Below, piece after piece: positions 761 through 49,619 of a DNA stretch of 64,000 nt (its first letter is position 1; every line of letters starts with the position of its first letter). The DNA comes from Eledone cirrhosa (Eukaryota). The position numbers were made by a program, and so were the translations under genes. Where the stretch lies: positions 20,770,001 through 20,834,000 of the forward strand of contig OZ024740.1 in assembly GCA_964016885.1 (NCBI GenBank). Direction: 5' to 3'. The notes under the pieces are model-generated. The model was given only the letters and a program-made list of their open reading frames with translations. It was not told where the DNA came from and ran no database searches.

Positions 761-842
761 TACATACATACGTACATACATACGTACATACGTACATACA
801 TAGATACATACATACGTACATACGTACATACGTACATACATA

Positions 843-1405: not shown

Positions 1406-1446
1406 TACATGCGTACGTACATACATACATACATACATACATACAT

Positions 1447-2803
1447 ACAACACAGGAAACTTCCACATCAACAGTGACATAGACCGCTTTTACTTGAAAC
1501 GTAAGCAGGGAGGCAGAGGCCTAACATCAGTCCAGACAACATTTGAATGTCGCATCATATCTCTCCGACAACATCTACGAACCTCGAAGCGTAGGAGCCC
1601 GTTTCTCGAGCAAGTCTATCTGCATGAAACAGATAAGATTATGAGAGTTGGGAAGGAACTCTTCGAGAGATATTCCCTGTGTCATAATCACAAACTCACA
1701 CCCAGGGAAGTCGCTCAGCAGTATCGCAGTGAATCCAAGGATGAAAAACTGCATACTTATCAGCAAAAAATCATGCATGGATATGTTGCCAGGAAGCTCC
1801 TGGGTGAGAGTAATATATATAAGGAAAGTAGTCTGTCTTGGACCAACAACCGCTATATTGGCTCCCACTTTGAAGGATACGCTTTTGCAATCCAAGAACA
1901 GGAGATTAGCACGAAATACCTGATTCACAAAAGAGATAGGGATGCAGGCAAAACAACTAGATGTGATAACAAGTGCAGACTCTGCAGAACTAACATCGAG
2001 GATATCACCAATGTCATCAGCAGCTGCCCAAAGATGTCATCGCGGTACTATCTACCTATGGGGCATGATGTAGTGGCCAAAACACTGTACAATGCAGTTC
2101 GTAAAAAAGATAGCCCCGATAATAAACACATGAAAAGCTACAACAATGTGGAAGACATCCATGTACATAATATGAAAGAGTACTGGTGGAATGTTTCAGT
2201 AAAAACCCCAATAAAATGCAGGCAAACAGACCAGATATTATGATATGGGACAGGGAGAAGAAAACATGCACAGTAGTGGAAATTAGCTGCCCAGCAGATG
2301 CCAATATAATATCAAAGATTAGTGAAAAGGAGAATATTTATGCAGAACTGATGAGAAATCTGCAGATACTCCACCCTGATTACACCTTCAGATTTATGCC
2401 TGTGATCATTGGGGCACTGGGATATGTTAGTAACTGCCTCAATACAAATCTTGAGAAGCTAGGCTTCACAGGAACAGAAAGAACACAACTAGTTAGGAAA
2501 TTACAAGTACAATCCATTAATGGAACAGTAAAAATATGTAAAACATTCCCAAAATGTTGCATCTAATAACTGCATATACACATGTACAGATACAAAGCAT
2601 ATACACATGCACACATACAACTCAAAACATACACATCCACACATACAATAACATCCATATCTACACATGCATGCATGCAGACATACATACATATCTACCT
2701 AGTTGATGTTGTGTAAATTCCAATGAGAGAATCTTGTGTCTATGTTAGAAACCGACTCTCTTTCTATTGGTAAAACTTTGTGAAATTATAAAACCAGAAG
2801 AAC
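1447..2803 (+). mobile_element. 5'-truncated, frameshifted RLE non-LTR retrotransposon (R4/Dong-like): post-RT region, CCHC zinc knuckle, RLE and 3' UTR
   Basis: R4-type post-RT motif DIDRFYLKRKQGGRGL; AIQEQEI; CRLC..EDI.(H/N)VISSC knuckle; (R/G)HDVVAK; RPDI..VEISCP in the next frame (2186-2566). Flanked by (TACA)n. Confidence 0.88.
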
Positions 2804-3856
2804 ATACATACACATACATGATGGCTGCCCTCTCGTTATCGAGTATGGCCATTGCACGATATACCATTATTACTAATTATTAATTAATTCTATCGGGCAA
2901 TGCCTGTACGTGAAGATATTTTTTAAAGTGAGGAAAGACTGTGCACTGAGCCAATCCCACTCTCTGAGCGACAGTAGCTATAACCCGAAAAGAAAAAAGA
3001 TCAACATCATCGGTAACTACTGAGCCGCAGGTTTTATATCGGAGTTATCCCAGTTTCCTAAGTTGCCTTCTCCTAGAAGAATGCCCTGACAAATGCTAGG
3101 GGTCCTTCACTCCCAGTGGTTTAACCGCGCGATCGGGTGTCCAACCCGACTATTTCTATGTCCCCGCGCATACATACATACGTACATACATACGTACATA
3201 CGTACATACATAGATACATACATACGTACATACGTACATACGTACATACATAACAGACCAGATATAATGTTATGGGACAGGGAAAAGAAAGCATGCACAG
3301 TAGTGGAAATTAGCTGCCCAGCAGATGCCAATATAATATTAAAGATTAGCGAAAAGGAGAATATTTATGCAGAAGTAATGAGAAATCTGCAGATACTCCA
3401 CCCTGATTACACCTTCAGATTTATGCCTGTGATTATTGGGGTACTGGGGCATGTTAGTAACTGCCTCAATACAAATCTTGAGAAGCTAGACTTCACAGGA
3501 ACAGAAAGAAAACAACTAGTTAGGAAATTACAAGTACAATCCATTAATGGAACAGTAAAAATATGTCAACAAATTTTGCATAAAATAATTGCATATACAC
3601 ATGTACAGATACAAAGCATATATACATGCACACATACAACTAAAAACATACACATCCACACATACAATAACATCCATGCCTACACATGCAGACATACATA
3701 CATATCTACCTAGTTGATGTTGTGTAAATTCCAATGAGAGGGTCTTGTGTCTATGTTAGAAACAGTCTCTCTCTCTATTGGCAAACATTTGTGAAATTAT
3801 AAAACCAGAAGAACATACATGCGTACGTACATACATACATACATACATACATACAT

Positions 3857-4925
3857 ACAACACAGGAAACTTCCACATCAACAGTGACATAGACCGCTTT
3901 TACTTGAAACGTAAGCAGGGAGGCAGAGGCCTAACATCAGTCCAGACAACATTTGAATGTCGCATCATATCTCTCCGACAACATCTACGAACCTCGAAGC
4001 GTAGGAGCCCGTTTCTCGAGCAAGTCTATCTGCATGAAACAGATAAGATTATGAGAGTTGGGAAGGAACTCTTCGAGAGATATTCCCTGTGTCATAATCA
4101 CAAACTCACACCCAGGGAAGTCGCTCAGCAGTATCGCAGTGAATCCAAGGATGAAAAACTGCATACTTATCAGCAAAAAATCATGCATGGATATGTTGCC
4201 AGGAAGCTCCTGGGTGAGAGTAATATATATAAGGAAAGTAGTCTGTCTTGGACCAACAACCGCTATATTGGCTCCCACTTTGAAGGATACGCTTTTGCAA
4301 TCCAAGAACAGGAGATTAACACGAAATACCTGATTCACAAAAGAGATAGGGATGCAGGCAAAACACCTAGATGTGATAACAAGTGCAGACTCTGCAGAAC
4401 TAACATCGAAGATATCACCCATGTCATCAGCAGCTGTCCAAAGATGTCATCGCGGTACTATTTACCCATGAGGCATGATGTAGTGGACAAAACACTGTAC
4501 AATGCAGTTCGTAAAAAAGATAGCCCCGATAATAAACACATGAAAAGCTACAACAATGTGGAAGACATCCATGTACATAATATGAAAGAGTACTATTGGA
4601 ATGTTCCAGTAAAAACCCCAATAAAATGCAGGCATGCAGACCAGATATTATGACATGGGACAGGGAGAAGAAAACATGCACAGTAGCGGAAATTAGCTGC
4701 CCAGCAGATGCCAATATAATATCAAAGGAAAATATTTATGCAGAACTGATGAGAAATCTGCAGATACTCTACCCTGATTACACCTTCAGATTTATGCCTG
4801 TGATTATTGGGGCACTGGGATATGTTAGTAACTGCCTCAATACAAATCTTGAGAAGCTAGGCTTCACAAGAACAGAAAGAACACAACTATTGGTAAAACT
4901 TTGTGAAATTATAAAGCCAGAAGAA
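3857..4925 (+). mobile_element. Second copy of the R4/Dong-like fragment with an internal deletion near the 3' end
   Basis: ORFs 3778-4653 and 4596-5048 show CRLC..HVISSC, RHD and RPDI. A deletion joins ~4888 directly to the 3' terminus. Confidence 0.85.
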
Positions 4926-4951
4926 CATACATACATACATACATACATACA

Positions 4952-4984
<33 letters not shown>

Positions 4985-5849
4985 GATGGTTGCCCCCTCG
5001 TTATCGAGTATGGCCATTGCACGATATACCATTATTAATAATTATTAATTAATTCTATCGTGCAATGCCTGTGCGTGAAGATATTTTTTTAAATGAGGAA
5101 AGACTGTGCACTGAGCCAATCCCACTCTCTGAGCGATAGTAGCTATCACCCGAAAAGAAGAAAAGATCAACATCATCGGTAACTACTGATCCGCAGATTT
5201 TATATCGGAGTTATCCCAGTTTCCTGAGTTGCCTTCTCCTAGAAGAATGCCTTGACAAAGTTTAGGGGGTCCTTCACTCCTAGTAGTTTAACCGAGCGAT
5301 CGGGTGTCCAGCCCGACTAATTCTATGTCCCCGCGCATATACATACACATTCACCCATGTATATACACATATACATATACATACATATGTACATGTTTAT
5401 ATACATATTTACACATTTTTGGATGGCCGTTGACTCTATGAGTTCTTCCTACCGATGTGCTGAACGAGTGTGACTTTTTAGTCCAGCCAGCAACTTGAAA
5501 ACTCTGGTACAATCACTACACCTGTGACAATTATTGACACATAGTGCTGGGCCCTTGGTACCATGTGACGACAAGTGCAAAGAGATCTCCAAATATAAAG
5601 CAATGCCTGTGCCGTGAAGCTTTTATAGTGAGCAAAGGCACTGCACAAAGCCAGTCCCACTCTCTTAACCAAGATGATATTTACCAAAAAAGAAGAACAA
5701 GTCAACAGCATTGGATACCATCAGAGTTTTCCTACTCCTAGAATTCTGCCTTGACAAAGGCTAAGGGGTCATCTCTCCCGTACACACATACATATATACA
5801 TACGTAGATACATACATACATACGTACATACATACGTACATACATGTGT

Positions 5850-6562
5850 ACATAAATGGAACTCGAAAAATACTAAACAACACAGGAAACTTCCACATCA
5901 ACAGTGACATAGACCGCCTTTACTTGAAACGTAAGCAGGGAGGCAGAGGCCTAACATCAGTCCAGACAACATTTGAATGTCGCATCATATCTCTCCGACA
6001 ACATCTACGAACCTCCAAACGTAGGAGCCCGACTCTCGAGCAAGTCTATCTGCATGAAACAAATAAGATCATGAGAGTTGAGAAGGAACTCCTTGAGAGA
6101 TGTTCCCTGTGTGATAATCAAAAACTCACACCCAGGGAAGTCGCTCAGCAGTACCGCAGCGAATCCATGGATGAAAAACTGCATGCCTATCAGCAAAATA
6201 TCATGCATGGATATGTTGCCAGGAAGCTCCAGAGTGAGAGTAATATAGATAAGGAAAGTAATCTATCTTGGACCAACAACCGCTATATTGGCTCCCACTT
6301 TGAAGGATACGCTTTTGCAATCCAATTTTGGATCTAATAACTGCATATACACATGTATAGATACAAAGATATACACATGCACACATACAACTCAAAACAT
6401 ACACATCCACACATACAATAACATCCATATCTACACATGCATGCATACATAATCTATCTAGTTGATGTTGTGTAAATTCCAATGAGAGGGTCTTGTGTCT
6501 ATGTTAGAAAACGACTCTCTCTTTATTGGGAAAAAATTTGTGAAATTATAAAACCAGAAGAA
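5850..6562 (+). mobile_element. Internally deleted R4/Dong-like fragment
   Basis: ORF 5846-6337 (TRKILNNTGNFHINSDIDRLYLKRKQGGRGL...) is fused directly to the family 3' UTR and followed by (TACA)n. Confidence 0.82.
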
Positions 6563-6718
6563 TACGTACGTACATACATATATACACACATACATAAATA
6601 CATAGATACATACATACATGCATGCATACATATATATATATATATACGTACATACGTACATATATATATATACATACATTCATACATACATACATATATA
6701 CATACATACATATATACA

Positions 6719-6752
<34 letters not shown>

Positions 6753-6825
6753 CATACATACATATATATACATACATACATACATACATACATACATACA
6801 TACATAGATACATATATATATATAT

Positions 6826-6856
<31 letters not shown>

Positions 6857-7320
6857 CATACATACATATATATACATACATACATACATATATACATACA
6901 TACATATATATACATACATATATACATACGTACGTACATACATATATACATCCATAGTACATACATACAAAATTAAAATTTTAAATGTTAAATTCCTCAT
7001 GGATTTATATATTAACTATGTAAATTAGAACCGACCTGCAGATAATCCTTATATATACATTATATACACACATGATCCCTATATATATATACATTATATA
7101 CACACATGATCATGGGACAGTCATTTAATGAAAGATTCGTCTGGACAATAGTAATAAGAGCATGTATGGGCTTTAATATGTTTGTCCGGTTCTTTCACAT
7201 ACAGTGAAGACTACACATATCCACCCATATCGTGAGAAGAAACAATATATATATATATATATACATGAAAAGTGTCAGGACCCCGACGGCTGAGCTCCGG
7301 CCGTTTTGACAGCTAGATAC

Positions 7321-7648: not shown

Positions 7649-7691
7649 GTAATCTACGCGTTTCATTCTTGTTAGAAATCATCAGGACTAC
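7649..7691 (-). ncRNA. Minimal type I hammerhead ribozyme; also at 7959-8001, 8269-8311, 8579-8621 and 8889-8931 (all minus)
   Basis: Minus strand reads GTAGTC-CTGATGA-TTTCTAACAAGAAT-GAAA-CGCG-TA-GATTAC: stem I GTAGTC/GATTAC, CUGAUGA and GAAA cores, palindromic short stem III (ACGCGT), GUA cleavage triplet. Confidence 0.88.
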
Positions 7692-9143
7692 ATATCCAGT
7701 GCTTTTATCGAGAATGACACAGCTAGAGACTTATAGAATACTTAGCTGTGTACAGGAACTGGTTTGAAAGAGCGGTTGCCGGTCCGGCAGAAATTAGAAA
7801 TTGGAATAAATGCTCTGAAATAGCGATATATATGTGAATATAGACATAGAATATTCGAAAATATTCTGTATGTTTATAATAAACATTTTGAAGACCTAAT
7901 CGCTATAGAATAGAATACGTCACGTATTACAATTAGATTCTCGATAAAAGCAAGGGAAGTAATCTACGCGTTTCATTCTTGTTAGAAATCATCAGGACTA
8001 CATATCCAGTGCTTTTATCGAGAATGACACAGCTAGAGACTTATAGAATACTTAGCTGTGTACAGGAACTGGTTTGAAAGAGCGGTTGCCGGTCCGGCAG
8101 AAATTAGAAATTGGAATAAATGCTCTGAAATAGCGATATATATGTGAATATAGACATAGAATATTCGAAAATATTCTGTATGTTTATAATAAACATTTTG
8201 AAGACCTAATCGCTATAGAATAGAATACGTCACGTATTACAATTAGATTCTCGATAAAAGCAAGGGAAGTAATCTACGCGTTTCATTCTTGTTAGAAATC
8301 ATCAGGACTACATATCCAGTGCTTTTATCGAGAATGACACAGCTAGAGACTTATAGAATACTTAGCTGTGTACAGGAACTGGTTTGAAAGAGCGGTTGCC
8401 GGTCCGGCAGAAATTAGAAATTGGAATAAATGCTCTGAAATAGCGATATATATGTGAATATAGACATAGAATATTCGAAAATATTCTGTATGTTTATAAT
8501 AAACATTTTGAAGACCTAATCGCTATAGAATAGAATACGTCACGTATTACAATTAGATTCTCGATAAAAGCAAGGGAAGTAATCTACGCGTTTCATTCTT
8601 GTTAGAAATCATCAGGACTACATATCCAGTGCTTTTATCGAGAATGACACAGCTAGAGACTTATAGAATACTTAGCTGTGTACAGGAACTGGTTTGAAAG
8701 AGCGGTTGCCGGTCCGGCAGAAATTAGAAATTGGAATAAATGCTCTGAAATAGCGATATATATGTGAATATAGACATAGAATATTCGAAAATATTCTGTA
8801 TGTTTATAATAAACATTTTGAAGACCTAATCGCTATAGAATAGAATACGTCACGTATTACAATTAGATTCTCGATAAAAGCAAGGGAAGTAATCTACGCG
8901 TTTCATTCTTGTTAGAAATCATCAGGACTACATATCCAGTGCTTTTATCGAGAATGACACAGCTAGAGACTTATAGAATACTTAGCTGTGTACAGGAACT
9001 GGTTTGAAAGAGCGGTTGCCGGTCCGGCATCCAATTTCTAATTTCTGCCGGACCGGCAACCGCTCTTTCAAACCAGTTCCTGTACACAGCTAAGTATTCT
9101 ATAAGTCTCTAGCTGTGTCATTCTCGATAAAAGCACTGGATAT

Positions 9144-9186
9144 GTAGTCCTGATGATTTCTAACAAGAATGAAACGCGTAGATTAC
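9144..9186 (+). ncRNA. Minimal type I hammerhead ribozyme; also at 9454-9496 and 9764-9806
   Basis: gtagtc ctgatga tttctaacaagaat gaaa cgcg ta gattac, enclosed by the 16-bp inverted repeat attctcgataaaagca/tgcttttatcgagaat. Confidence 0.88.
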
Positions 9187-9926
9187 TTCCCTTGCTTTTA
9201 TCGAGAATCTAATTGTAATACGTGACGTATTCTATTCTATAGCGATTAGGTCTTCAAAATGTTTATTATAAACATACAGAATATTTTCGAATATTCTATG
9301 TCTATATTCACATATATATCGCTATTTCAGAGCATTTATTCCAATTTCTAATTTCTGCCGGACCGGCAACCGCTCTTTCAAACCAGTTCCTGTACACAGC
9401 TAAGTATTCTATAAGTCTCTAGCTGTGTCATTCTCGATAAAAGCACTGGATATGTAGTCCTGATGATTTCTAACAAGAATGAAACGCGTAGATTACTTCC
9501 CTTGCTTTTATCGAGAATCTAATTGTAATACGTGACGTATTCTATTCTATAGCGATTAGGTCTTCAAAATGTTTATTATAAACATACAGAATATTTTCGA
9601 ATATTCTATGTCTATATTCACATATATATCGCTATTTCAGAGCATTTATTCCAATTTCTAATTTCTGCCGGACCGGCAACCGCTCTTTCAAACCAGTTCC
9701 TGTACACAGCTAAGTATTCTATAAGTCTCTAGCTGTGTCATTCTCGATAAAAGCACTGGATATGTAGTCCTGATGATTTCTAACAAGAATGAAACGCGTA
9801 GATTACTTCCCTTGCTTTTATCGAGAATCTAATTGTAATACGTGACGTATTCTATTCTATAGCGATTAGGTCTTCAAAATGTTTATTATAAACATACAGA
9901 ATATTTTCGAATATTCTATGTCTATA

Positions 9927-25950: not shown

Positions 25951-26119
25951 TGACTGTGTGTATGTGTCTATATTGCTATATGTCTGACTATCTGTTTGTC
26001 TATACGTCCATGTATGTAGGTGGTCGGCTGATTGGTAGAAGCGGTTAGTAGGTCGTTATGGTTGATAGCTAGATTGGTAGGTTGTTAGTTCATAAATAGG
26101 TTGTGATTGCTTTGCAAGA

Positions 26120-28085
26120 AGAGTGATAGGTGGGTAAGTTGCTAGGTGGGGGGTGGGGGGTAAAGTTGCTAGGTGGGTAAGTTGCTAGATAGGAGGTTAA
26201 GTTGATAGGTGGTTAAGTTGATAGGTGGTTAAGTTGATAGGTGGGGAAGTTGCTAGATAGGAGGTTAAGTTGATAGGTGAGTAATTTGATTGGTGGGCAA
26301 GTTGATAGGTGGATAAGTTGATAGGTGGGCAAGTTGATAGGTGGGTAAGGTGATAGGTGGGGAAGTTGCTAGATAGGAGGTTAAGTTGATAGGTGAGTAA
26401 TTTGATTGGTGGGCAAGTTGATAGGTGGATAAGTTGATAGGTGGGCAAGTTGATAGGTGGGTAAGGTGATAGGTGGGGAAGTTGCTAGATAGGAGGTTAA
26501 GTTGATAGGTGGGTAATTTGATTGGTGGGCAAGTTGATAGGTGGATAAGTTGATAGGTGGGCAAGTTGATAGGTGGGTAAGGTGATAGGTGGGGAAGTTG
26601 CTAGATAGGAGGTTAAGTTGATAGGTGGGTAATTTGATTGGTGGGCAAGTTGATAGGTGGATAAGTTGATAGGTGGGCAAGTTGATAGGTGGGTAAGGTG
26701 ATAGGTGGGGAAGTTGCTAGATAGGAGGTTAAGTTGATAGGTGGTTAAGTTGATAGGTGGTTAAGTTGATAGGTGGTTAAGTTGATAGGTGGGGAAGTTG
26801 CTAGATAGGAGGTTAAGTTGATAGGTGAGTAATTTGATTGGTGGGCAAGTTGATAGGTGGATAAGTTGATAGGTGGGCAAGTTGATAGGTGGGTAAGGTG
26901 ATAGGTGGGGAAGTTGCTAGATAGGAGGTTAAGTTGATAGGTGGTTAAGTTGATAGGTGGTTAAGTTGATAGGTGGGGAAGTTGCTAGATAGGAGGTTAA
27001 GTTGATAGGTGAGTAATTTGATTGGTGGGCAAGTTGATAGGTGGGGAAGTTGATAGGTGGGTAAGGTGATAGGTGGATAAGGTGATAGGTGGGGAAGTTG
27101 CTAGATAGGAGGTTAAGTTGATAGGTGGGTAATTTGATTGGTGGGCAAGTTGATAGGTGGATAAGTTGATAGGTGGGCAAGTTGATAGGTGGGTAAGGTG
27201 ATAGGTGGGGAAGTTGCTAGATAGGAGGTTAAGTTGATAGGTGGGCAATTTGCTAGATAGGTGGGTAAGTTGCTAGGTGGATAAGTTGCTAGAGATGTGG
27301 GTAAGTTGATAGATAGGTGGGTAAGTTGATAGGTGGGTAATTTGATTGGTGGGTAAGTTGCTATGTCGGTAAGTTGCTAGATAGTTCGGTAAGTTGATAG
27401 GTGGTAAGGAGATAGGTGGGCAAGTTGATAGGTGGGCAAGTTGATAGGTGGGTAAGTTGATAGGTGGGTAAGTTGGTAGGTGGGTAAGTTGCTAGATAGG
27501 TAGGTGGGTAGGTAAGTTTCTAGATAGGTGGGTAAGAAGCTAGGTGGGTAAGTTGCTAGATAGGTAGGTAAGTTGATAGTTGGGTAAGCTGCTAGATAGG
27601 TGGGTAAGTTGCTAGGTGGGTAAGCTGCTAGATAGGTGGGTAAGTTGCTAAATAGGTGGGTACGTTGCTAGGTGGGTAAGTTTCTAGATAAGTGGGTAAG
27701 TTGCTAGATAGGTGGGTAAGTTGATAGGTGGGCAAGTTGATAGGTGGCTAGGTAAGTTGCTAGATAGGTGGGTAAGTTGATAGGTGGGTAAACTGCTACA
27801 TAGTTGGGTAAGTTGCTAGATAGGTGGGTACGTTGCTAGGTGGGTAAGTTGCTAGATAAGTGGGTAAGTTGCTAGATAGGTGGGTAAGTTGATAGGTGGG
27901 TAAACTGATAGATAGGTGGGTAAGTTGCTAGGTGGGTAAGTTGCTAGATAGGGGGGGGGGTAAGTTGCTAGGTGGGTAAGCTGCTAGATAGGTGGGTAAG
28001 TTGCTAGGTGGGTAAGCTGCTAGATTGGGGGGGGGGGTAAGTTGCTAGATATCTGGGTAAGTTGCTAGGGGAAGGTAGGTTGCTA
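26120..28085. repeat. G-rich 16-bp minisatellite (aagttgataggtgggN) with 116-bp higher-order repeats
   Basis: Visible periodicity; the near-identical minus-strand ORFs ending 26448, 26564 and 26680 are spaced 116 bp apart. Confidence 0.92.
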
Positions 28086-29049
28086 GACAGGTTAGAAGGC
28101 CGATAGACAAGTGGTTGGCTGGAAGAATGGAATGTAACTAGAGGATGAGTATTGAAAGACTCGATTAACAGAACAGCTTAATTATGAAATTAACATGCAA
28201 GCAGGTCTGGATTTAATGGGAAGAAAAGGGGTAAATTATCCTGGGTCCCCTGCAGTGAGAGACCTCACCAGCGATGGCCGTAGCAATTTATTTGTGCCCT
28301 CAGCTGGTCTTTTTAGTTTTAGGATGGTTATAATTGTTTTAATTCAATACCTGTCTGTATAACTTTTCAATTCCAATTACTTGCACCAAGCTAACTTTGA
28401 TATGTAAAATTGGGGGAAAGGGGGTGGGGGCTGTGTATTCTAATTTGTTGTGTATGAGGGGCCCCCAAACCTGAAGTGACCCCCAAGGTCTAAATTCAAA
28501 CCCGTACCTCTAATGTAATTCTTATGTAAACTCAGCTTCATATGTGTGACAAGGGTACCCCTTTGCATTACAGAAACAGTCCATCTGACAGGCTTCTAAA
28601 CAATTTCTGCCTATCCAATTTTACTTACAAGATTTGAATTGACCCGCGGTTATGGTAAATGTCACGTGTGTACTTGTGGTGGCGTTCACACGGGGTCGGT
28701 TGATTCGAAGGAATTTACGGTATAAATTTATTTCAATGGAGTTTCTTCGGGCAATTGGTTTCACAAGCTGTGTCCAGCAGGTATATTCACTTTAGGATAA
28801 TGCCATCCAAGCATTGCATTGGTTGGTGGAGCCAGTACCGTACTGGGACACATGGGAGGGAGTTTGGCTGGCAGAGGTGGTAAACACAACCTATTTGAGC
28901 CATTTTGTAGGCCAGCAGGAGTTCACCCCACTGTCCATCTCAAGCTTACCGACCCTCGGCACCAAATGACACGTACCCAAGATGTAATACAGTAGGATGG
29001 AAATCAGAATATTATGTTAGCTAAGAAATCTTCTTAACAATTCAGCCGT

Positions 29050-29880
29050 CAAGAGATGGTTGGTAGGTTGTTGGTACCACTTGATAAGTTGGTGGTTGGT
29101 AGGTTGTTTGTACCACTTGGTAAGTTGGTGGTTGGTAGGTTGTTGGTAGGTTGTTGGTACCACTTGGTAAGTTGGTAGTTGGTAAGTTATTGGTAGGTTG
29201 TTGGTACCACTTGGTAAGTAGGTGGTTGGTAGGTTGTTGGTAGGTTGTTGGTAGGTTGTTGGTACCACTTGGTAAGTAGGTGGTTGGTAGGTTGTTGGTA
29301 GGTTGTTGGTACCACTTGGTAAGTTGGTGGTTGGTAGGTTATTGGTAGCTTGTTGGTACCACTTGGTAAGTAGGTGGTTGGTAGGTTGTTGGTAGGTTGT
29401 TGGTAGGTTGTTGGTACCACTTGGTAAGTAGGTGGTTGGTAGGTTGTTGGTAGGTTGTTGGTACCACTTGGTAAGTAGGTGGTTGGTAGGTTGTTGGTAG
29501 GTTGTTGGTAGGTTGTTGGTACCACTTGGTAAGTAGGTGGTTGGTAGGTTGTTGGTAGGTTGTTGGTACCACTTGGTAAGTAGGTGGTTGGTAGGTTGTT
29601 GGTAGGTTGTTGGTAGGTTGTTGGTACCACTTGGTAAGTAGGTGGTTGGTAGGTTGTTGGTACCACTTGGTAAATATGTGGTTGGTAGGTTGTTGGTAGA
29701 TACCACTTGATAAGTAGGTGGTTGGTAGGTTGTTGGTAGATACCACTTGATAAGTAGGTGGTTAGTAGGTGGTTGGTACCACTTGATCAATAGGTGGTTG
29801 GTAGGTTGTTGGTAGGTGGTTGGTACCACTTCATAAATAAGTGGTTGGTAGGTTGTTGGTACCACTTGATAGCTGATTGG
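29050..29880. repeat. Minisatellite of ggtaggttgtt (11 bp) interspersed with ggtaccacttggtaagt
   Basis: Direct inspection; the ORFs here are repeat translations. Confidence 0.9.
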
Positions 29881-31305
29881 TTAGTAAGCTTCATTTTTAT
29901 ATATTTGTTTTTATTTGTATTTCATGGTTTTCTTGACAAACTTCCCTACCAAACTTACAAAGGAGTTTATCTAGTTGTTGTGTTTAGCCACAGACCAGAC
30001 ACCATCAATATTTTGAAGCTATAGATATCGCGTCTGTAGCTTCATCATTATGTAATATATCATTCCTGTTATTTTTTCTTAAAAACTGTTGAGTATGATT
30101 TGAGAGAAATTTGGTTGCTATTTTTAGCAGGTCAAGCGACTCCGTAGAGTTCTTTTTTAAACTCGATATACAATTTCTCTTTGGTATTTATGTGTTACAG
30201 TGGACAATGTTTTGTCTATTCTACATTTACCTTTTAAACTATATTATTGGTATAGTCTACCTTAGCTTTAGGTTAACCAAAATGTTGTGTAGGAAATTTG
30301 GTAGACTGAAACAATGTGGAAGACCGTTGGAGGAACCATTCTTCTCGTTGCGTGGTAGTTGACAAGAAACGTATTTTTTGTTTCTAACAAAGAGACTCAT
30401 CAAGCTGGAACATCACCTATCAGCAACTGTAACTGTATATTTTCAAAACAGGACTGTACAGCGACGAGAGACTGACACAGTGACACACACTTCATTGTTT
30501 CCCAAGATATATCGAAGCTAGCATTATAACTCTTTGGCTGGGACGCTAGTCCCTTCATAAGGTTAATCCTAGATACTGTTAATGGTACTCATTTCCCCAG
30601 ATGAGTTGACTGAAGCAGCATTAAATGCACCGTAGTCTCAGGAGATGGAATACACAACCATATGATCCTGAACCCAACACGTTAACCACTTAGCCAATGA
30701 AGTCTACCTTAATGGTAGACTAATCCAAATAGGCTGTAGTTGGAAATCTGTCTGATATTTAGCATTACGGTGACAATTTCGGACATATTTCGGTCTAATT
30801 AGACCTTTTCAGAAAAGCATTGTTTTCTCATTACTTTCTAGATCTAAATTCATTAACATATAGAAGCTCTGAATATTAGTCCATTGATAGTCATGAAGGC
30901 AGGTTTTCTTCTGCAAGTGTTTGTTGTTATGGTGACTGATGTAGAGTCAGTTTGTTGCCAAACTGGGTTTATATTCAAAGACATCGCCTGATGATTATCC
31001 CCTCCCCACACCAACAAAAAAACATCTCTAACAATCTCAATCATTTGATTATTCTATTATCTTCTCGTCTATTTGATGAGTTTATTTCTGGTCTCTAATG
31101 ACCAGTGTAGGTCTTAACATAACAATACAGCACAGAAGACACTAATTGCACAGAAGCCATCTGCATCTTTTACATTTCAGATATGCTGCAATATTATTTC
31201 TTTGTTCTCAGAGTCGCCAGATCAATTTCATAGAAAAGCAGTTTGAAATTTCATAAACTAGAACATTATATTATAAACTAGCCTACAACAAAAATTATAT
31301 ATAAT

Positions 31306-33479: not shown

Positions 33480-33805
33480 TTTTATTTACATCATTCTTAA
33501 ACTCCGGTGCTGGAAATCATTCGGTTATTTTAAATAGAATATTAGTCTAACGACTCCATTTACACCATAAACTTGGTCTTGTCTTCGCATGAAATTTTTC
33601 TTCTCGGTCCACATAACGACGTATTATCCTCGCTTTTTTTTCGTTCATTGCCAGGGAACGTCTTCACGAACCAAAATATCGTCTTCCTGTTTTCCTTCGG
33701 TTGCAACGTTTCTCGAAACATTTAATTCTGCGTTCACAGATTGAATTTTTTAATTTAAGAAGATCCCGTTAAGGGTGAAAGCAGCGATTCTTTGCTTAAA
33801 GTTTC
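33480..33805 (+). mobile_element. Diverged PLE 3'-end fragment; similar pieces at 34525-34855(+), 42565-42682(-) and 20270-20402(-)
   Basis: Homologous to 40580-41044, including the agatcccgttaagggtgaaagcagcgattctttgcttaaa motif. Confidence 0.8.
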
Positions 33806-35127
33806 TTTCTTTCTCAACCTCCTCCCTTTTTTCTCATACCCTCTCTCTCTCTCTTTCTCTCTCTCTCTCACTCATACCCCCTCTCTCTCTCTTCCTCTAC
33901 AGAATGGAGAACAATAAAGAACGCGCAGATCTCTCTCTCTCTCTCTCTCTCTGATTATCTTGTACCTCTCTCTGTATAACGACCTATCTCACTCTCCCAC
34001 TCTACATCTCCCTTTCTCTCTTTAGATGTATATGTATATATGTGTGTGTGATATATATATATATATAGAGAGAGAGTTTCAACATGTATGTAGTTTCATA
34101 GATTTTTTAGGGCAGTAGTGAGAGGAATTAAGCGTGTAAGAGAGAGGGTTACAGCATGTATTTAGTTTTATCGATTTTGTTTTCATAGAAGCAGGAACAT
34201 TTTGGTAGATTTAGAGCACATTGAAAGAAAAATCATCAAAATCGGTAGAGAAATGTGGAAATGCATAAAGATCATACACACACACAGACAGACATCTTCC
34301 GTTTTATATATATAGAGAGATTATGTAATAAACAACATAAGACAATTATTCCATTTAACATAAGACAATAAACAACATAAGACAATTATTCCATTTAACA
34401 TAAGACAATAAACAACATAAGACAATTATTCCATTTAACATAAGACAATTATTCCAATTATTCCATTTACCAAATAATTACATAAGAGAATGCAACTAGA
34501 AATATATACACACACGTTCAACTAATTTATTTACATGATTCTTAACTCCGAAGCCGAGAATCATTCGGTTTCCTAAATAGAATATTAGTCTAATGACCCC
34601 TTTTATACCATAAACGTGGTTTTGTCTTTGCGTGTATTTGTTCTCACCGCTCCACATAACGACGTATTATCTTCGCTTTTTTCCGAACATCTTCACGAAC
34701 CAAAGTATCGTCTTCCTGTTTTCCTTCAGTTGCAACGTTTTTCGAAATATTTACTTCTGCGTTCACAGATTGATTTATTTTAGATTCAGAAGATCCCGTT
34801 AAGGGTGAATGTAGCGATTCTTTGCTTAAACTTTAATCTGTTATTTTAATAAATTAATATATATATAAATATAATATGAGTTTTTCGAATATTAATAATA
34901 ATATTCAATTCGTTTACAATTATGCAAACAGCCTCATTTTAAAAGCCATCTCAGTCGAATGAGCCACTACAGACACTAATGTCTCTGAGTATTACTCAGA
35001 AACATTAGTGCCTGCAGTTCTGTTTACATGCCAACACAAGAGCAAGAATCAAGGGTTCATTTTACTGACAAGGCTTTAAAAATAAGGCTGTTTACATAAT
35101 TGCAAACGAATCGAATATTATTATTAA

Positions 35128-35639: not shown

Positions 35640-37258
35640 TATTCGAATACTCAGATTACATTTATTGTATTCAGCCATGTAGGGCGATTATTTAAAGAAA
35701 AATTTATTTGAATATGACAAAGCCGGCCATTGATTGTTCGTATACAGGAAAATAACTGGCCAGTCTGCTCATATGCAAACCTGGCTGATCAGTGGATCTG
35801 CTAATATGCAGATCTCACTGATCAGCCTGTCTGTTTATATGCAAATCAGGCCGATTAGTCACTGCATGTTTTAGGAAATATCATATATTTTCACTAGCTC
35901 TGACAATTGGCAGGTGAACAGTGAGCTGTACTGAGGAAGGGTAATACCCAGAAACATTAGTGTCTGCAGTTATGTTTACATGCCAACATAAGAGCAAGAA
36001 TGAAGGGTTCACTCTACTGACATGGCTTTAAAAATGAGGCTTGTTTGCATAATTACAATTAATCGAATGTTATTATTAATATTAGAAAAACTCAGATTAC
36101 ATTTATTGTATTCAGCCATATAGAGCGATAGTTTGAAAAAAAATATTTTATATATATATATATATATATAGTAATAATAATAAAATTGAAGACTAAAATC
36201 CAAAGAGGGCTCGATAAGGAAAATATATATCAAATATATAAGAACCGTAGAGCAAATATTTATTAAAATAACAGATTAAAGTTTAAGCAAAGAATCGCTG
36301 CTTTCACCCTTAACGGGATCTTCTGAAACTAACAAAGTCAATCTGTAAACGCAGAACTGGATATTTGAAAAAACGTTGCAACCGGAGGAAGACAGGAAGA
36401 CGATACTTTGGTTCGTGGTAACGTTCGCTGGCAAAGAACGGGAAAAAACGAATAATACGTCATTAATGGGAGCGGTGAAAAACAATTACGCGCAAAGACA
36501 AAACCACGTTTATGGTATAAAAGAGGTCGTAGACTAATGTTCTCTTAGGTGGTGCATAGAGACGTTCTCTGGCAATGAACGGAAAAACGAAGATAATAAG
36601 TCATATGTGGTGCGTGGAGAACAATAGCACGCAAAGACAAAACCACGTAAATGGTATAGCAGAAATCGTAGACTAAAATTCTAACTAGGAGACCAAATGA
36701 ATCTCCGCTACAGAGTTAAGAACAAAGTAAATAAATACAATACAGAAGTAATAGAAACAAATAAATACATACACGCAAACAGATACGTACATACACAAGC
36801 ATACGCAAAACCTTACCATGGGTATACAAAACCACGCACATATAAATATGTTTGTGTGTGTATGCTTGTGTACAAATAAATAAATAATTATATAAACGTA
36901 TATAAGTAAATAAATACGTATATAACAAGCGCACACGCATACCTACATATAAATACACGAATGTTCGGAGACGTAAGTCAACTAAAACAAGAAGTACACA
37001 TATACACACACCCACCATACGTACGAACCTGCACACTCACGCGGACACAAAACTCCCGTATACACATAGCCAAACCCTAAATACCAGAATATGTAAAAAT
37101 TATACGCTATAACAGTCAAATATACGTACGAGAAGGTATACATACCTTCACAAAACATACGGGTAATATATACTTACCTATGCAAATAAGTAAAGGAATA
37201 AACAAAACATATACTTAGCTCCCACATCAAGACGTAAAATATCCACGTATAGATCGTG

Positions 37259-39388
37259 CTATCCGTTAGGGTATAACGTGGTGCTGTAATACAGGAAAGT
37301 TTTGTGCAATTTATGTTTACAAGCCGAAAATGCCTCGGATTTTTTGTTTAAGATGTGGTCTGTAGCGTAGAGTATTTCCAGGGCCTCAGCGGCGCAAAGG
37401 TCACATGGTCTTTTATTTCCGTTATACGATCTAGCCCTAGCTAGGATCTCTCAGTGTAACTTATATTGGGTGTGGTTGTCTTTTAGACTCCAGATATAAG
37501 CTGAAAGTGACGTCATATTCCTTCTTAGAGGGTAACGAAAAGAATGGGTATGCATGTAAAGACGTTGCTTGAAACTATTGGCGGTTAACCCTATGTAGGC
37601 CCTACGGGACGTGGGTGTTACAACCTTACATTTGTAGACAATGTTACTAGAGAGGCATTTCCCGGATAGGGGGCAATCAGCCCGATTTCTACAATTACAG
37701 TTAGTACTAACTACCGGGTTGCACGTGTTCCTACGGCTAGGTAGTTTAGCTAAATTTGAAGCTGTGATGTTATGTGCAAGGTTAGGAGTCGTAGAGTAAG
37801 AAATTTTAATAGTATTTCTATTAAAAATTTTACTATATTTATGTGTAGGGGAAAATGCTTCGTAATAAGGGAAATAAAGATCTTAGCTAATGGTGTGGCC
37901 ACCTCCATATTATATGGTGGGTTAAACCAACAAATGCGACGGGATCTATTTCTTCTAGGTCTATTTTCGTACTCTGTATATGCTACCTTATCGACAAATC
38001 CACTTCGAGCAAGAGCTTCATTGTAATAAGTGGAATGGTCGTTGAAAATGCGCTCGTTGGTGGAAAGACGGGAAAGCCTCAACGAAACGTTTCTTACCAG
38101 GTTCTTGGTTATGCTGGCAGGATGGTTGGAATGCTTACTTATGTAATTAAGCGTATCATTCGGCTTTCTATACGGGTAATACAACCCATTCAATAAATTG
38201 AGGGTAACGTCGAGGTAATTAACGACCGAGAGATTGGCCTCAACCTGTATAGAGAGGTTGAAGCCTTTAAAGAAGGCTGTGAGTTCTTTTCTGAACCTGT
38301 CGCAAGCACGAGGTCCGCACTTAGTCATGGTCAAAAGACCATCGTCACGGTACAAACCACCGCTCGCGTTGGGGAATTCGTCCTTGATAGAGAAAAGAAG
38401 GAAAAGGCCAATAAGATCAGTAACCTCCGCAGAGTCACTGGCACCCATACTCACGTCGAATGGGGTACTATTGGATTTTTTAATCCAAATAGAGTCGTCG
38501 AAATTAATCACCGACTTTCGGGCATTAAGGATGACATCAACTTCAAAATCCTTAACCACTGTGAGTGTTTTAGCGAAATTGATAGCTCTAAGGAGAAGTG
38601 GTAAAGTGATGGAGGAGTAGTAATTGTTGATGTCGAATTGGATAAAACGGCAATGTTCCTTGTTACATATGCCGTTGAACCAATAAATCACCGCGAAAGA
38701 ATTGTTCCACAGTGCGAGAGGGGCCAAACTTCTAATTTCAGGTATAATTCTATCAAGAATCGTTTTACTAAGTCTACCTAAATCGGACTTCGTAGGGTTA
38801 ATAAGCCGAATAGAGGGGTTGTTCGGAAAATTGGATTTGTGATCCTTCAGGGTAAAGTGGGGAGAGATAGGGTCCAGAGGTTCGGTCCGGTCCAGGATGT
38901 TGAGATCAGATGTGATTTTAAACCCAGCATCGTTGATTTCATTGATGACGCACCGATTAGTTTTACGGTAATCCTTAGTTACAGCATTATGTAGTAGTTG
39001 ATGGTAAGTACTGCGCTCCACTTGATATAGGTTGCCAGTTTTGTCGGAATGGACGTGCACGGCGTTAGAATCCTTAATAGAACGAATTCTATTCTTCAGG
39101 TCTTGCTGGAAGGAATTGCTCCTATTCCGAAATTTGATATTCCGAATGAGTTCCAAGACATCATTTTCAAAAGGGTAGCAATGCTGGGTTCCACGGAGGG
39201 TTATTATAAGTTTTAAATCCAAATTTATCCTGTTTGTTGTCTGCTTTTCGCGGATTATCGAAATAAAAGGCACGCCAACGCAACCTTTTAATGAACGCGT
39301 CTGTTTTCTGTATCAGGAGTTTTAGGTATGTTTTCCTGCTTGGTACGGGTATGTTCTTTGTAGAAATATTCAGATGTTGTTTCTGCAT
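37259..39388 (-). pseudogene. PLE reverse transcriptase / GIY-YIG endonuclease ORF (~710 codons) with 2 frameshifts and 1 stop
   Basis: N-terminus STKNIPVPSRKTY..FIKRLRWRAFYF; RT motifs IRLINP, FIQFDINNYYSSI, FDVSMGASDSAEV, GLYRDDGL, NYLDVTL; C-terminus CNC..CPLSGKC..IVYKC..YIG..FKQR..H..CDLC..E..LNKKSE..CKH. Frameshifts near 39170 (T run) and 37850 (C run); TGA at 37451-37453. Confidence 0.9.
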
Positions 39389-39439
39389 GATGAATATAAG
39401 TCAGTAGAGTGCTCAACCGAAGGAGCCAAATAGTAATAG

Positions 39440-40042
39440 AAGCATTTTCCCCCTACACATAAATATAGTAAAATTTTTAATAGAAATACTATTAAAATTT
39501 CTTACTCTACGACTCCTAACCTTGCACATAACATCACAGCTTCAAATTTAGCTAAACTACCTAGCCGTAGGAACACGTGCAACCCGGTAGTTAGTACTAA
39601 CTGTAATTGTAGGAATCGGGCTGATTGCCCCCTATCCGGGAAATGCCTCTCTAGTAACATTGTCTACAAATGTAAGGTTGTAACACCCACGTCCCGTAGG
39701 GCCTACATAGGGTTAACCGCCAATAGTTTCAAGCAGCGTCTTTACATGCATACCCATTCTTTTCGTTACCCTCTAAGAAGGAATATGACGTCACTTTCAG
39801 CTTATATCTGGAGTCTAAAAGACAACCACACCCAATATAAGTTACACTGGGAGATCCTAGCTAGGGCTAGATCGTATAACGGAAATAAAAGACCATGTGA
39901 CCTCTGCGCCGCTGAGGCCCTGGAAATACTCTACGCTACAGACCACATCTTAAACAAAAAATCCGAGGCAATTTCGGCTTGTAAACATAAATTGCACAAA
40001 ACTTTCCTGTATTACAGCACCACGTTATACCCTAACGGATAG
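39440..40042 (+). CDS. Intact-frame C-terminal GIY-YIG endonuclease portion in the inverted PLE duplicate (5'-truncated, not an independent gene)
   Basis: Open from KHFPPTHKYSKIFNRNTIKISYS through CNCRNRADCPLSGKC, IVYKC/YIGLT to ...TLYPNG*. Has TGG and a 5-C run where the main copy has TGA and a 4-C run. Confidence 0.75.
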   Translation, partial: KHFPPTHKYSKIFNRNTIKISYSTTPNLAHNITASNLAKLPSRRNTCNPVVSTNCNCRNRADCPLSGKCLSSNIVYKCKVVTPTSRRAYIGLTANSFKQRLYMHTHSFRYPLRRNMTSLSAYIWSLKDNHTQYKLHWEILARARSYNGNKRPCDLCAAEALEILYATDHILNKKSEAISACKHKLHKTFLYYSTTLYPNG

Positions 40043-40970
40043 CACGATCTATACGTGGATATTTTACGTCTTGATGTGGGAGCTAAGTATATGTTTTGTT
40101 TATTCCTTTACTTATTTGCATAGGTAAGTATATATTACCCGTATGTTTTGTGAAGGTATGTATACCTTCTCGTACGTATATTTGACTGTTATAGCGTATA
40201 ATTTTTACATATTCTGGTATTTAGGGTTTGGCTATGTGTATACAGGAGTTTTGTGTCCGCGTGAGTGTGCAGGTTCGTACGTATGGTGGGTGTGTGTATA
40301 TGTGTACTTCTTGTTTTAGTTGACTTACGTCTCCGAACATTCGTGTATTTATATGTAGGTATGCGTGTGCGCTTGTTATATACGTATTTATTTACTTATA
40401 TACGTTTATATAATTATTTATTTATTTGTACACAAGCATACACACACAAACATATTTATATGTGCGTGGTTTTGTATACCAATGGTAAGGTTTTGCGTAT
40501 GCTTGTGTATGTACGTATCTGTTTGCGTGTATGTATTTATTTGTTTCTATTACTTCTGTATTGTATTTATTTACTTTGTTCTTAACTCTGTAGCGGAGAT
40601 TCATTTGGTCTCCTAGTTAGAATTTTAGTCTACGATTTCTGCTATACCATTTACGTGGTTTTGTCTTTGCGTGCTATTGTTCTCCACGCTCCACATATGA
40701 CTTATTATCTTCGTTTTTCCGTTCATTGCCAGAGAACGTCTCTATGCACCACCTAAGAGAACATTAGTCTACGACCTCTTTTATACCATAAACGTGGTTT
40801 TGTCTTTGCGTGTAATTGTTTTTCACCGCTCCCATTAATGACGTATTATTCGTTTTTTCCCGTTCTTTGCCAGCGAACGTTACCACGAACCAAAGTATCG
40901 TCTTCCTGTCTTCCTCCGGTTGCAACGTTTTTTCAAATATCCAGTTCTGCGTTTACAGATTGACTTTGTT

Positions 40971-41021
40971 AGTTTCAGAAGATCCCGTTAAGGGTGAAAG
41001 CAGCGATTCTTTGCTTAAACT
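40971..41021 (+). ncRNA. Non-canonical hammerhead-like motif in the PLE 3' UTR; also at 36280-36330(-), 12394-12444(+) and ~42586-42636(-)
   Basis: AGTTT-CAGAAGA-T CCC gttaa GGG T-GAAA-GCA gcgattctt TGC-TT-AAACT, extended by acagatt/aatctgt. All three stems pair, but core position 4 is A instead of U. Confidence 0.6.
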
Positions 41022-41037
41022 TTAATCTGTTATTTTA

Positions 41038-41140
<103 letters not shown>

Positions 41141-42561: not shown

Positions 42562-42691
42562 TATATATTAAAATAACAGATTAAAGTTTAAGCAAAGAAT
42601 CGCTGCTTTCACCCTTAACGGGATCTTCTGAAACTAAAATAATAAATCTGTGAACGCAGAAGTAAATATTTCGTAAAACGTTACACACACA

Positions 42692-42837
<146 letters not shown>

Positions 42838-43439
42838 CACACACACACACACCACGTCATAATGACGTAATGCACACAGCCAGGCATACAGACAGATATT
42901 ATAATGGCAAATCCTGCCGAGGTTAACTTTGCCTTTCATCCTTACGGGGTCGATAAAATAAAGTACCAGTAATGTACTGGGTAATTGCTGGCCTTGTGCC
43001 AAAAGTAGAAACAATTAATAAGAAGTACATATAAACAGACTTTGCTTGAATATGTAGAAACAAATGTAGAACAATTATAATGGCGCAACGTTATATCTAT
43101 GTATCTATCTAAAAAGAGAAAGACTAGTCTTTGTCAAGGCATTCTTCTAGGAGAAGGCAACTCAGGAAAGTGGGATAACTCCGATATAAAATCTGCGGCT
43201 CAGTAGTTACCGATGATGATCTTTTCTTCTTTTCAGGTTATAGCTACTGTCACCCAGAGAGTGGGATTGGCTCAGTGCACAGTCTTTCCTCACTTTAAAA
43301 AATATCTTCACGCACAGGCATTGCACGATAGAATTAATTAATAATTACTAATAATGGTATATCGTGCAATGGCCATACTCGATAACGAGGGGGCAGCCAT
43401 CCTCATGTATGTATGTATGTATGTATGTATGTATGTATG

Positions 43440-43470
<31 letters not shown>

Positions 43471-43478
43471 GTATGTAT

Positions 43479-44972
43479 GTTCTTCTGGTTTTATAATTTC
43501 ACAAATGTTTGCCAATAGAGAGAGTCAGTTTCTAATTCATTGGAATGTCTAATTCATTGGAATTTACACATCAACTAGGTAGATATGTATGCATGCCTGC
43601 ATGCATACATGTGTAGATATGGATGTTATTGTATGTGTGGATGTGTATGTTTTGAGTTGTATGTGTGCATGTGCATACACTTTGATCTGTATATGTGTAT
43701 ATGCAGTTATTAGATGCACAATTTTTGGAATGTTTTACATATTTTACTGTTCCATTAATGGATTGTACTTGTAATTTCCTAACTAGTTGTGTTCTTTCTG
43801 TTCCTGTGAAGCCTAGCTTCTCAAGATTTATATTGAGGCAGTTACTAACATATCCCAGGGCCCCAATAATCACAGGCATAAATCTGAAGGTATAGTCATG
43901 GTGGAGTATCTGCAGATTCCTCATTAGTTCTGTATAAATATTCTCCTTTTCACTAATCTTTGATATTATATTGGCATCTGCTGGGCAGCTAATTTCCACT
44001 ACTGTGCATGCCTTCTTCTCCCTGTCCCATATTATAATATCTGGTCTGTTATGCCTGCATTTTATTGGGTTGTTTTACTGGAACATTCCACCAGTACTCT
44101 TTCATATTATGTACATGGATGTCTTCCACATTTTTGTAGCTTTTAATGTGTTTATTATCGGGGCTATCTTTTTTACGAACTGCATTGTACAGTGTTTTGG
44201 CTACTACATCATGCCTTATAGGTAAATAGTACCACGATGACATCTTTGGACAGCTGCTGATGACATGGGTGACCATCTTCGATGTTAATTCTGCAGAGTC
44301 TGCACTTGTTATCACATCTAGGTGTTTTGCCTGCATCCCTATCTCTTTTGTAAATCAGGTATTTCGTGCTAATCTCCTGTTCTTGGATTGCAAAAGTGTA
44401 TCCTTCAAAGTGGGAGCCAATATAGCGGTTGTTGGCCCAAGATAGACTACTTTCCTTATCTATATTACTCTCACTCTGGAGCTTCCTGGCAACATATCCA
44501 TGCATGATTTTTTGCTGATAGGCATGCAGTTTTTCATCCATGGATTCGCTGCGCTAATGCTGAGCGACTTCCCTGGGTGTGAGTTTTTGATTATCACACA
44601 GGGAATATCTCTCAAGGAGTTCCTTCCCAACTCTCGTGATCTTATTTGTTTCATGCAGATAGACTTGCTCGAGAAACGGGCTCCTACGCTTCGAGGTTCG
44701 TAGATGTCGGAGAGATATGATGCGACATTCAAATGCTGTCTGGACTGATGTTAGGCTTCTGCCTCCCTGCTTACGTTTCAAGTAAAGGCGGTCTATATCA
44801 CTGTTGATGTGGAAGTTTCCGGTGTTGTTCAGTATTTTTCGAGTTTTACATCAATTGTTCGGATTTCGTCTATCGTCCAATTGAGTATTCCAAACGTTGG
44901 TGTTAGGACAGACTCAGCAAACACATTGTGAGCCACTGTTTTGTTGTGCGCAGAGAGTTCCGATGATCATAT
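43479..44972 (-). mobile_element. Degenerate R4/Dong-like RLE LINE 3' portion, same family as 1447-2803
   Basis: Minus-strand ORFs 44554-44781, 44209-44541, 44049-44336 and 43571-43999 reproduce the same protein in shifted frames; 3' end abuts (TATG)n. Confidence 0.85.
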
Positions 44973-49274: not shown

Positions 49275-49619
49275 AGAGAGAGGGTGTGAGAGAGAGATAG
49301 AGAAGGGGAGAGAGGGTGTGAGAGAGAGAGAGAGAGATTACCTTCCATCAGCCATCTACCATACTCTGAAATCATTGCTTCACTAGGTATGGACCAATTA
49401 AAGCTCCAACATCTGGCAACTGACTTGGTAGACACCCTCAAGATTCACCATCTTTCCAACAACAACCCTGGACACCTTTTTGAATACCATGTCTAGCACA
49501 CGTGGACATTCCTACAGAGTCAGAAAACAGCACAGCTCCCATCACTTTCGGAAACAATGTTCACACTCAGAGTTGCTGAAGCATGGAACAAACTACCTGC
49601 ATCAGTTGTTAGCTGTCCG

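What the first reader, a model, noticed from the sequence alone, without database searches (positions are those of the whole stretch)
40955..41030. PLE 3' UTR has a hammerhead fold with a variant core (CAGAAGA instead of CUGANGA)
Seen: stems I (AGTTT/AAACT plus distal acagatt/aatctgt), II (CCC/GGG) and III (AGCA/TGCT) surround CAGAAGA...GAAA...UU with correct spacing. A at position 4 is shared by the copies at 12394, 34787, 36280, 40971 and ~42590, so it is the family consensus and not decay of one copy. Known: U4 is highly conserved in HHRs, and standard motif searches would miss this one. Inference: a natural variant or attenuated ribozyme, or a structural RT-recognition signal.
Basis: partly seen in the sequence, partly recalled or inferred. 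Interest (0 to 1): 0.72.

Follow-up and report, generated by a model that had tools for sequence, protein, structure and literature searches.

The report
Crippled hammerhead in thriving retrotransposon
A jumping gene with over 20,000 copies in this animal genome carries a self-cutting RNA motif with a changed letter in its catalytic core, which likely cripples the cutting, and many copies begin at the motif's first letter with an extra G that likely comes from an RNA cap, suggesting that the element spreads from uncut RNA and would not need its ribozyme.

Summary
The motif is real. It is the type I hammerhead of a Hydra-clade Penelope-like element, with A in place of the conserved U4. A4 is the family state: 22,430 exact genomic matches, 21 of 21 motifs beside intact ORFs, an older subfamily, and 8 of 8 other organisms examined. 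The 725 'CUGA' matches are mostly fold-back junctions (10 of 10 inspected). Related families keep U4 and vary their stems pairwise, so A4 is derived.

Copies starting at the predicted cut site are rare (0 of 89; about 2% genome-wide), but equally rare in a U4 sister family, so this does not measure catalysis.

Best reading: a weak or silent ribozyme kept as promoter/5'-end sequence in a very successful element, a natural test of whether PLE hammerheads are needed. Activity is untested.

The parts
40971..41021 (+). Type I hammerhead-like fold with U4A (stems I-III, U.U at the base of stem II, predicted cut 41016|41017)
40976..40982 (+). Variant core CAGAAGA; A4 = 40977 = +7 of the inferred transcript
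40971..40971 (+). Inferred capped transcription start (+1, in TTA+1GT), first base of stem I; inferred from other copies of the family
   Evidence: 19 of 24 arms ending here have a 5' G; continuing copies have T in 211 of 218
40955..41030 (+). Distal stem ACAGATT/AATCTGT; can form only in read-through RNA or the 3' copy, because its 5' strand lies upstream of +1
40971..41043 (+). 73-nt block from +1 to the first 3' terminus, identical between young and old subfamily consensus
   Evidence: 0 of 73 versus 30 of 200 columns upstream
39439..41045 (+). Inverted, 5'-truncated arm of the insertion (endonuclease part, 3' region, motif), ending in (TA)n at about 41043-41132
36170..39440 (-). Main arm of the Hydra-clade PLE, with a tail at about 36170-36256
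37259..39388 (-). RT + C-terminal GIY-YIG-type ORF (RWR, DKT, CxCX5C, CxxC, CxH motifs); this copy is broken by two frameshifts and a stop; intact 709-aa copies exist elsewhere
36280..36330 (-). Same motif on the main arm (same insertion event)
12394..12444 (+). Another young copy of the motif
34782..34832 (+). Older-subfamily copy, A4 kept, decayed at A15.1 and stem I
42585..42635 (-). Short older-type copy, A4 kept
33752..33802 (+).

Best explanation
This is the hammerhead of a Hydra-clade Penelope-like retrotransposon in which the core U4 has been fixed as A; it is likely a weak or silent ribozyme, likely kept because the same bases form the start of the element's RNA. Shown: the layout, the family-wide A4, the intact ORFs, the U4 relatives, and the pile-up of 5' ends with an extra G at the first base of stem I. 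Inferred: transcription from the pseudo-LTR starts at 40971 and the RNA is capped; the enzyme starts copying at +73-75 or +163, runs through the uncut fold to the cap, and copies it as an extra base. Inferred: the +1 to +73 block is constrained as internal promoter and 5'-end sequence rather than as a catalyst, so U4A was tolerated and carried along with the expansion.
For: A4 25-mer: 22,430 exact matches. Non-A with stem I intact: 181, first 100 = 40 G, 34 T, 26 C, i.e. background mutation. 21 of 21 motifs printed beside 16 open 708-815-aa ORFs carry A4; 11 intact ORFs differ 0.6-1.6% from their consensus. No change at position 4 in contigs of 8 of 8 other organisms. Relatives keep U4: 26 of 26 Hydra rows of PMC8557442 File S2, sister family B at 53% aa, 4 of 7 metagenome loci, all one family. 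5' ends: 21 of 89 tail-bearing copies stop 37-50 nt upstream of the cut site and 0 of 89 at it. Arms ending exactly at +1 have G in 13 of 16 versus 9 of 64 elsewhere (Fisher p = 6e-7), or 19 of 24 in a wider count covering 14 of 18 loci. An untemplated 5' G is read as a copied cap in L1 work (PMC9341517); Penelope has an internal promoter (PMC2377424). The invariant block starts at +1 and includes both loops. Single changes in CUGA gave low activity in a mutational scan (PMC9901934). Hammerhead catalytic mutants did not affect insertion by an Anolis PLE in vitro (PMC11167929).
Against: No cleavage assay and no RNA data (no RNA holder listed). Scarcity of ends at the cut site is not diagnostic: the U4 sister family gives 71 of 2,593 (2.7%) against 236 of at least 11,449 (2.1% or less) here, and 3 of 30 sampled copies against 0 of 89. 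All other core bases and all stems are intact, as a still-selected ribozyme would show. The 0 of 73 block rests on two subfamilies and could reflect recombination. A natural U4C variant is enough for viroid infectivity (PMC3088659). Some of the Gs could be templated by the inverted partner arm (5 of 14 loci). 17 truncated arms run a few bases past +1, so there are upstream starts or read-through RNA. The G signal is unclear in family B.
Confidence: 0.6

Rival explanations
1. A functional slow ribozyme: U4A lowers but does not abolish cleavage, ORF protein or the distal stem rescues it, and this low activity is what is selected (for example to cut read-through or tandem RNA while sparing most capped mRNA).
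For: C3-G8, G5, A6, A9, G12-A14 and the A15.1-U16.1 pair are all intact, with no stem change between subfamilies. The Anolis PLE hammerhead cut only with protein (PMC11167929). U4C works in vivo in a viroid. A second repeat family here has C4 in 8 of 8 copies seen. Stem III is a real 4-bp hairpin, so no dimer is needed.
Against: No covariation inside the family. Proximal stem I is predicted to be barely populated. Family F has the same layout and 5' ends near stem I but keeps U4 and shows a compensatory stem I change, so losing U4 is not needed to spare a cap. No excess of ends at the cut site.
Confidence: 0.25
2. A non-catalytic RNA structure bound by the element's protein (RT loading, packaging or the junction-joining step).
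For: The three-way layout is kept, 5' junctions cluster inside it, and many fold back on the TTC-A-GAA palindrome.
Against: 3' termini lie beyond the fold and next to separate GCTC/GAGC hairpins. In family B the junction hot spot falls inside loop II, not at a homologous structural position, so it follows the start site rather than the fold.
Confidence: 0.1
3. Chance resemblance to a hammerhead.
For: Not the MFE, z near 0, no Rfam hit.
Against: Same position and U...U signature as Hydra hammerheads; column-for-column match to U4 families in this genome; shuffled background about 1e-3 per element end.
Confidence: 0.03

Closest known systems
Hydra-clade PLE hammerheads (PMC8557442; passages, section 11, supplement parts 1, 2 and 52 of 59 read), e.g. 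Hydra-1_Ajap, Hydra-1_Crog, Penelope-5_HM
   Same: Type I, near the 3' terminus, CxGAAGAU...UGAAA with U on both sides of a short stem II, cut after U, (TA)n targets, same protein motifs
   Different: A4 instead of U4 (26 of 26 listed Hydra rows have U4); stem III has a 9-nt non-palindromic loop instead of 0-2 nt; a different family from Hydra-1_Obim (compared by eye)
Natural hammerhead core variants: U3-A8 (PMC4209133, parts 1-2 of 4 read), U4C, A6C, U15.1-A16.1, U10.1-U11.1 (PMC3088659, passages and section 8 read; Figure 5 and S7 not seen)
   Same: A single deviation in an otherwise complete core
   Different: U4A is not named in the text read; here it is fixed in an autonomous family with over 20,000 copies
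Poseidon_Ac (PAc) of Anolis (PMC11167929, passages read)
   Same: Two RT start sites and a tail; uncut RNA is the main template; no RNA ends seen at the hammerhead site
   Different: PAc has a canonical, protein-assisted hammerhead overlapping the ORF start; the in-vitro mutant result has a natural in-vivo counterpart here
Penelope of Drosophila virilis internal promoter (PMC2377424, passages read)
   Same: Transcription starts in the pseudo-LTR; promoter lies inside the transcribed region
   Different: No RGACGTGY downstream element seen here; the start site is inferred from junction Gs, not from RACE

Membership tests
Hydra-clade PLE | Single ORF, RT with C-terminal GIY-YIG-type endonuclease | tested here: met
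   709-aa ORFs; 515 homologues of similar length; no Pfam hit, so the domain names rest on motifs
Hydra-clade PLE | RWK-like motif, DKT, CxCX5C linker, CxxC and CxH | tested here: met
   RLRWR, SDKTG, CNCRNRADC, CDLC, CKH against section 11 of PMC8557442
Hydra-clade PLE | (TA)n insertion, partial tandem and inverted arms, tail | tested here: met
Hydra-clade PLE | Length under 3 kb | tested here: not met
   unit is 3,243 nt; the paper says 'generally' short
Hydra-clade PLE | Placement in the RT phylogeny | not tested
   no tree built
Type I hammerhead ribozyme | Three helices in type I order with correct spacing | tested here: met
Type I hammerhead ribozyme | Core CUGANGA | tested here: not met
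   CAGAAGA in 22,430 matches
Type I hammerhead ribozyme | GAAA, A15.1-U16.1 pair, NUH cut site | tested here: met
   GAAA 40996-40999, CUU 41014-41016
Type I hammerhead ribozyme | G10.1-C11.1 pair | tested here: not met
   U.U here; common in Hydra elements and tolerated
Type I hammerhead ribozyme | Covariation of stems | tested here: inconclusive
   present across families chosen by the same descriptor, absent within the family
Type I hammerhead ribozyme | Self-cleavage after NUH | not testable with these tools
   junction mapping is not diagnostic; no RNA run

The most novel reading that the evidence does not exclude
U4A is an adaptive, still-working core variant. The element's capped RNA begins at the first base of the ribozyme's stem I, and A4 throttles cutting, or makes it depend on the element's own protein, so that capped mRNA survives long enough to be translated and copied. 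This would be a new natural hammerhead core and a protein-gated switch in a retrotransposon.
Probability: 0.2. Interest if true: 0.75.

Novelty: new variant of a known kind. Interest (0 to 1): 0.5.

Why it matters
Whether PLE hammerheads do anything for transposition is open: PMC8557442 asks whether they merely parasitise PLEs, and PMC11167929 finds them dispensable in vitro. A canonical C-terminal-endonuclease PLE that reached over 20,000 copies, still has intact ORFs and occurs in at least eight other organisms with a fixed core mutation is a natural in-vivo experiment. One gel (wild type, A4U, G5A, with and without protein) decides between a dead and a new working core. Either result is useful: dead shows dispensability in vivo; active widens the hammerhead consensus and means CUGA-anchored searches miss whole families. 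The extra-G signature also offers a way to map PLE start sites from genomes alone.

Tried and rejected
1. A younger U4 subfamily: 725 CUGA matches, but 10 of 10 inspected were fold-back junctions read from the other strand. With stem I required, only 181 non-A matches remain, about a third T; at least 2 of the 4 T loci fetched (L044, L051, L052 being the partner of L051) sit at 5' junctions.
2. An ancient A4 shared with sister family B: a 'CAGAATT' near B's 3' end first looked homologous, but it lies in loop II of B's true U3-A8 hammerhead. Rejected.
3. A hidden canonical or scrambled core elsewhere in the element: the only CUGANGA in the 3,243-nt unit is inside the ORF at +493, without GAAA.
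4. 5' ends at the cut site as an activity read-out: not discriminating.
5. 'U4A was needed to spare the cap': weakened by family F.
6. Rfam, Pfam and MFE z-scores gave nothing.
7. No RNA holder listed: no evidence either way on expression.
8. Loose contig ends at GATC and GANTC were taken as library junctions and ignored.
9. A covariance model was not built because the MAFFT alignment misplaced stem III.
10. A protein search with a 57%-identical homologue returned only this family; no relative between the old subfamily and about 53% aa identity was found, so the origin of A4 is not dated.
11. One search had a reference bug (all zeros) and was replaced.
12. Literature searches for a natural U4A hammerhead (supplement search, file 1 not searchable) found none. 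The paper cataloguing PLE hammerhead variants (PMC5785218) and the review PMC2271363 were not held, so absence from print is not established.

Full report
Observation. The predicted cut is 41016|41017. Five listed copies exist, but 36280 and 40971 are two arms of one insertion. The fold is not the MFE and Rfam does not detect it. A descriptor with position 4 free found it as the only hit in the element, against 21 hits in shuffled 1.34 Mb.

The host element. The motif ends a Penelope-like element whose ORF has the Hydra-clade motifs. The window copy is broken. Of 20 regions fetched around long open frames, 16 held open 708-815-aa ORFs, and 11 full 709-aa ORFs differ 0.6-1.6% from their consensus. 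The unit is 3,243 nt. In tandem copies the core lies 199 nt before the ATG, so the motif is both 3' end and 5' leader. The genome is 3.0 Gb; earlier AI notes call it cephalopod, which I did not test.

A4 is the family state. The A4 25-mer has 22,430 exact matches. The U4 25-mer has 725, but 10 of 10 inspected are perfect fold-back junctions centred on TTC-A-GAA. With stem I required, non-A matches number 181; the first 100 are 40 G, 34 T and 26 C. All 21 motifs printed beside intact ORFs have A4, as do 27 of 27 older-subfamily copies picked up by a pattern that left position 4 free, from 30 loci. Contigs from 8 of the 20 runs holding the family, each a different organism label, show no change at position 4.

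A4 is derived. All 26 Hydra rows of File S2 in PMC8557442 have CUGA, 14 of them with the same U...U around stem II. In this genome the 53%-identical sister family B has a full hammerhead with the known U3-A8 swap and U4. Of 208 descriptor hits set aside as 'other', 178 have U4; 14 of the 19 A4 hits and 1 of the 4 G4 hits are family copies my filter missed, the other 5 A4 hits are singletons like the shuffled background, and 5 of the 7 C4 hits form one family. Ten short-stem hammerheads from seven families, this one included, line up column for column: 105 of 110 stem cells pair, with up to five pair types per column. These were chosen by the same descriptor, so pairing is partly built in; the sequence diversity is not. 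Four of 7 metagenome relatives, all one family, carry CUGA.

Constraint. Young (18 copies) and old (29 copies) consensus lines differ at 30 of 200 columns upstream and at 0 of 73 from 40971 to the first 3' terminus (p about 7e-6 under uniform change). Loops are as fixed as stems, and there is no compensatory change within the family. Family F, of nearly the same build, varies loop II and changes a stem I pair. That pattern fits a sequence-level constraint better than a structural one, though 14 loop bases alone are too few to decide, and recombination could also produce it.

Where copies begin. I mapped 5' junctions of copies sampled by a motif downstream of the cut site: 0 of 89 begin at the cut site, 12 at 21-36 nt, 21 at 37-50 nt and 8 at 51-100 nt upstream. 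In a larger set of 334 arms, 232 ran on upstream and 16 stopped exactly at 40971; 13 of these had G in front, against 9 of 64 at other positions. A wider count gave 19 G, 3 A and 2 C, while continuing copies have T in 211 of 218. Nine of the 14 loci with G cannot be explained by the partner arm, and three have G on both arms. Family C shows the same G at its own 5' hot spot in 5 of 7 truncated copies judged by eye; family B is unclear. An untemplated 5' G is taken as a copied cap in L1 studies (PMC9341517), and Penelope promoters are internal (PMC2377424). I infer a capped start at +1 = 40971. The fold is then nucleotides 1-51 of the RNA, and these copies came from RNA that had not been cut. 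Seventeen truncated arms run slightly past +1, so other starts or read-through RNA also serve. I found no description of this signature for PLEs, which were not exhaustive.

What the junctions do not show. Genome-wide, junctions at the cut site are 236 of at least 11,449 here and 71 of 2,593 in family B (some are G-run slips), with 3 of 30 sampled B copies at the site. Uncut templates dominate in U4 families too, so catalysis cannot be read from them.

Activity. All single changes in CUGA gave low activity in a full mutational scan (PMC9901934). U4C lowers activity considerably yet supports viroid infection (PMC3088659). From recall only, U4 substitutions cost minimal hammerheads one to two orders of magnitude. 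PLE hammerheads are weak to begin with (PMC4209133; PMC6765202 passages), and one cuts only with its protein while its catalytic mutants still insert (PMC11167929). Proximal stem I is AU-rich and predicted to be barely formed. Weak or silent is therefore likely, but unmeasured.

Verdict. A real, family-fixed U4A hammerhead homologue in a highly successful Hydra-clade PLE, most likely a crippled ribozyme retained as the element's promoter-proximal 5' end (0.6). Rivals are a working slow or protein-gated variant (0.25), a protein-binding fold (0.1) and chance (0.03). It works like a PLE terminal hammerhead in position and ancestry; it fails the core-sequence test for membership as an active hammerhead until assayed. 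Searches found no natural U4A in print, but PMC5785218 could not be read. Also seen and not relied on: PMC2837043 and PMC11014351 (passages) and bioRxiv 10.64898/2026.07.22.740005 (part 1 of 5).

Noticed in passing
L086:1822 (+), L100:2905 (-), L217, L240, L188, L356, L362: A second repeat family with a non-U4 core, CCGAAGA (U4C), and a 7-bp stem II, in 8 of 8 copies seen; not counted genome-wide.
   Followed up: partly
L163-L192, L313-L372: Sister Hydra family B (at least 2,593 tail-bearing copies) with a U3-A8 hammerhead and long loop II; its 5' junction hot spot (TCAGT) lies inside loop II, so RNA started there would lack half of the ribozyme.
   Followed up: partly
window 7685-9770: Head-to-head array of about 310-nt units, each with a canonical CUGAUGA hammerhead (5 on minus, 3 on plus): retrozyme-like.
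   Followed up: no
window 10976(-), 18129(-), 18222, 19931, 35931, 46616, 48818, 56912(-): Canonical hammerheads of at least six other repeat families in this window.
   Followed up: partly
window 36170-36256 (-) and 39410-39430 (-): GCTC/GAGC hairpins just past both 3' termini (+73-75 and +163) of this family; similar TTGAG(T/C)AC and ACTCT motifs in the tails of families B and F.
   Followed up: partly
window 40619-40880: Two diverged 139-nt tandem units (81% identical) upstream of the motif; the older subfamily consensus aligns over only one.
   Followed up: no
runs X5, X9, X12-X15, X17, X19: The family is about 90-99% identical in eight other organism labels: recent shared expansion or horizontal spread.
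   Followed up: no
window 49432-62774 and 26000-30000: Long, strongly skewed tandem repeats giving stop-free frames of up to 2,373 aa.
   Followed up: no
window 1-7000 and 43124-44700: Fragments of another retroelement family in several copies, including a 2,410-nt duplication; its CAGAAGA matches are unrelated to the hammerhead.
   Followed up: no
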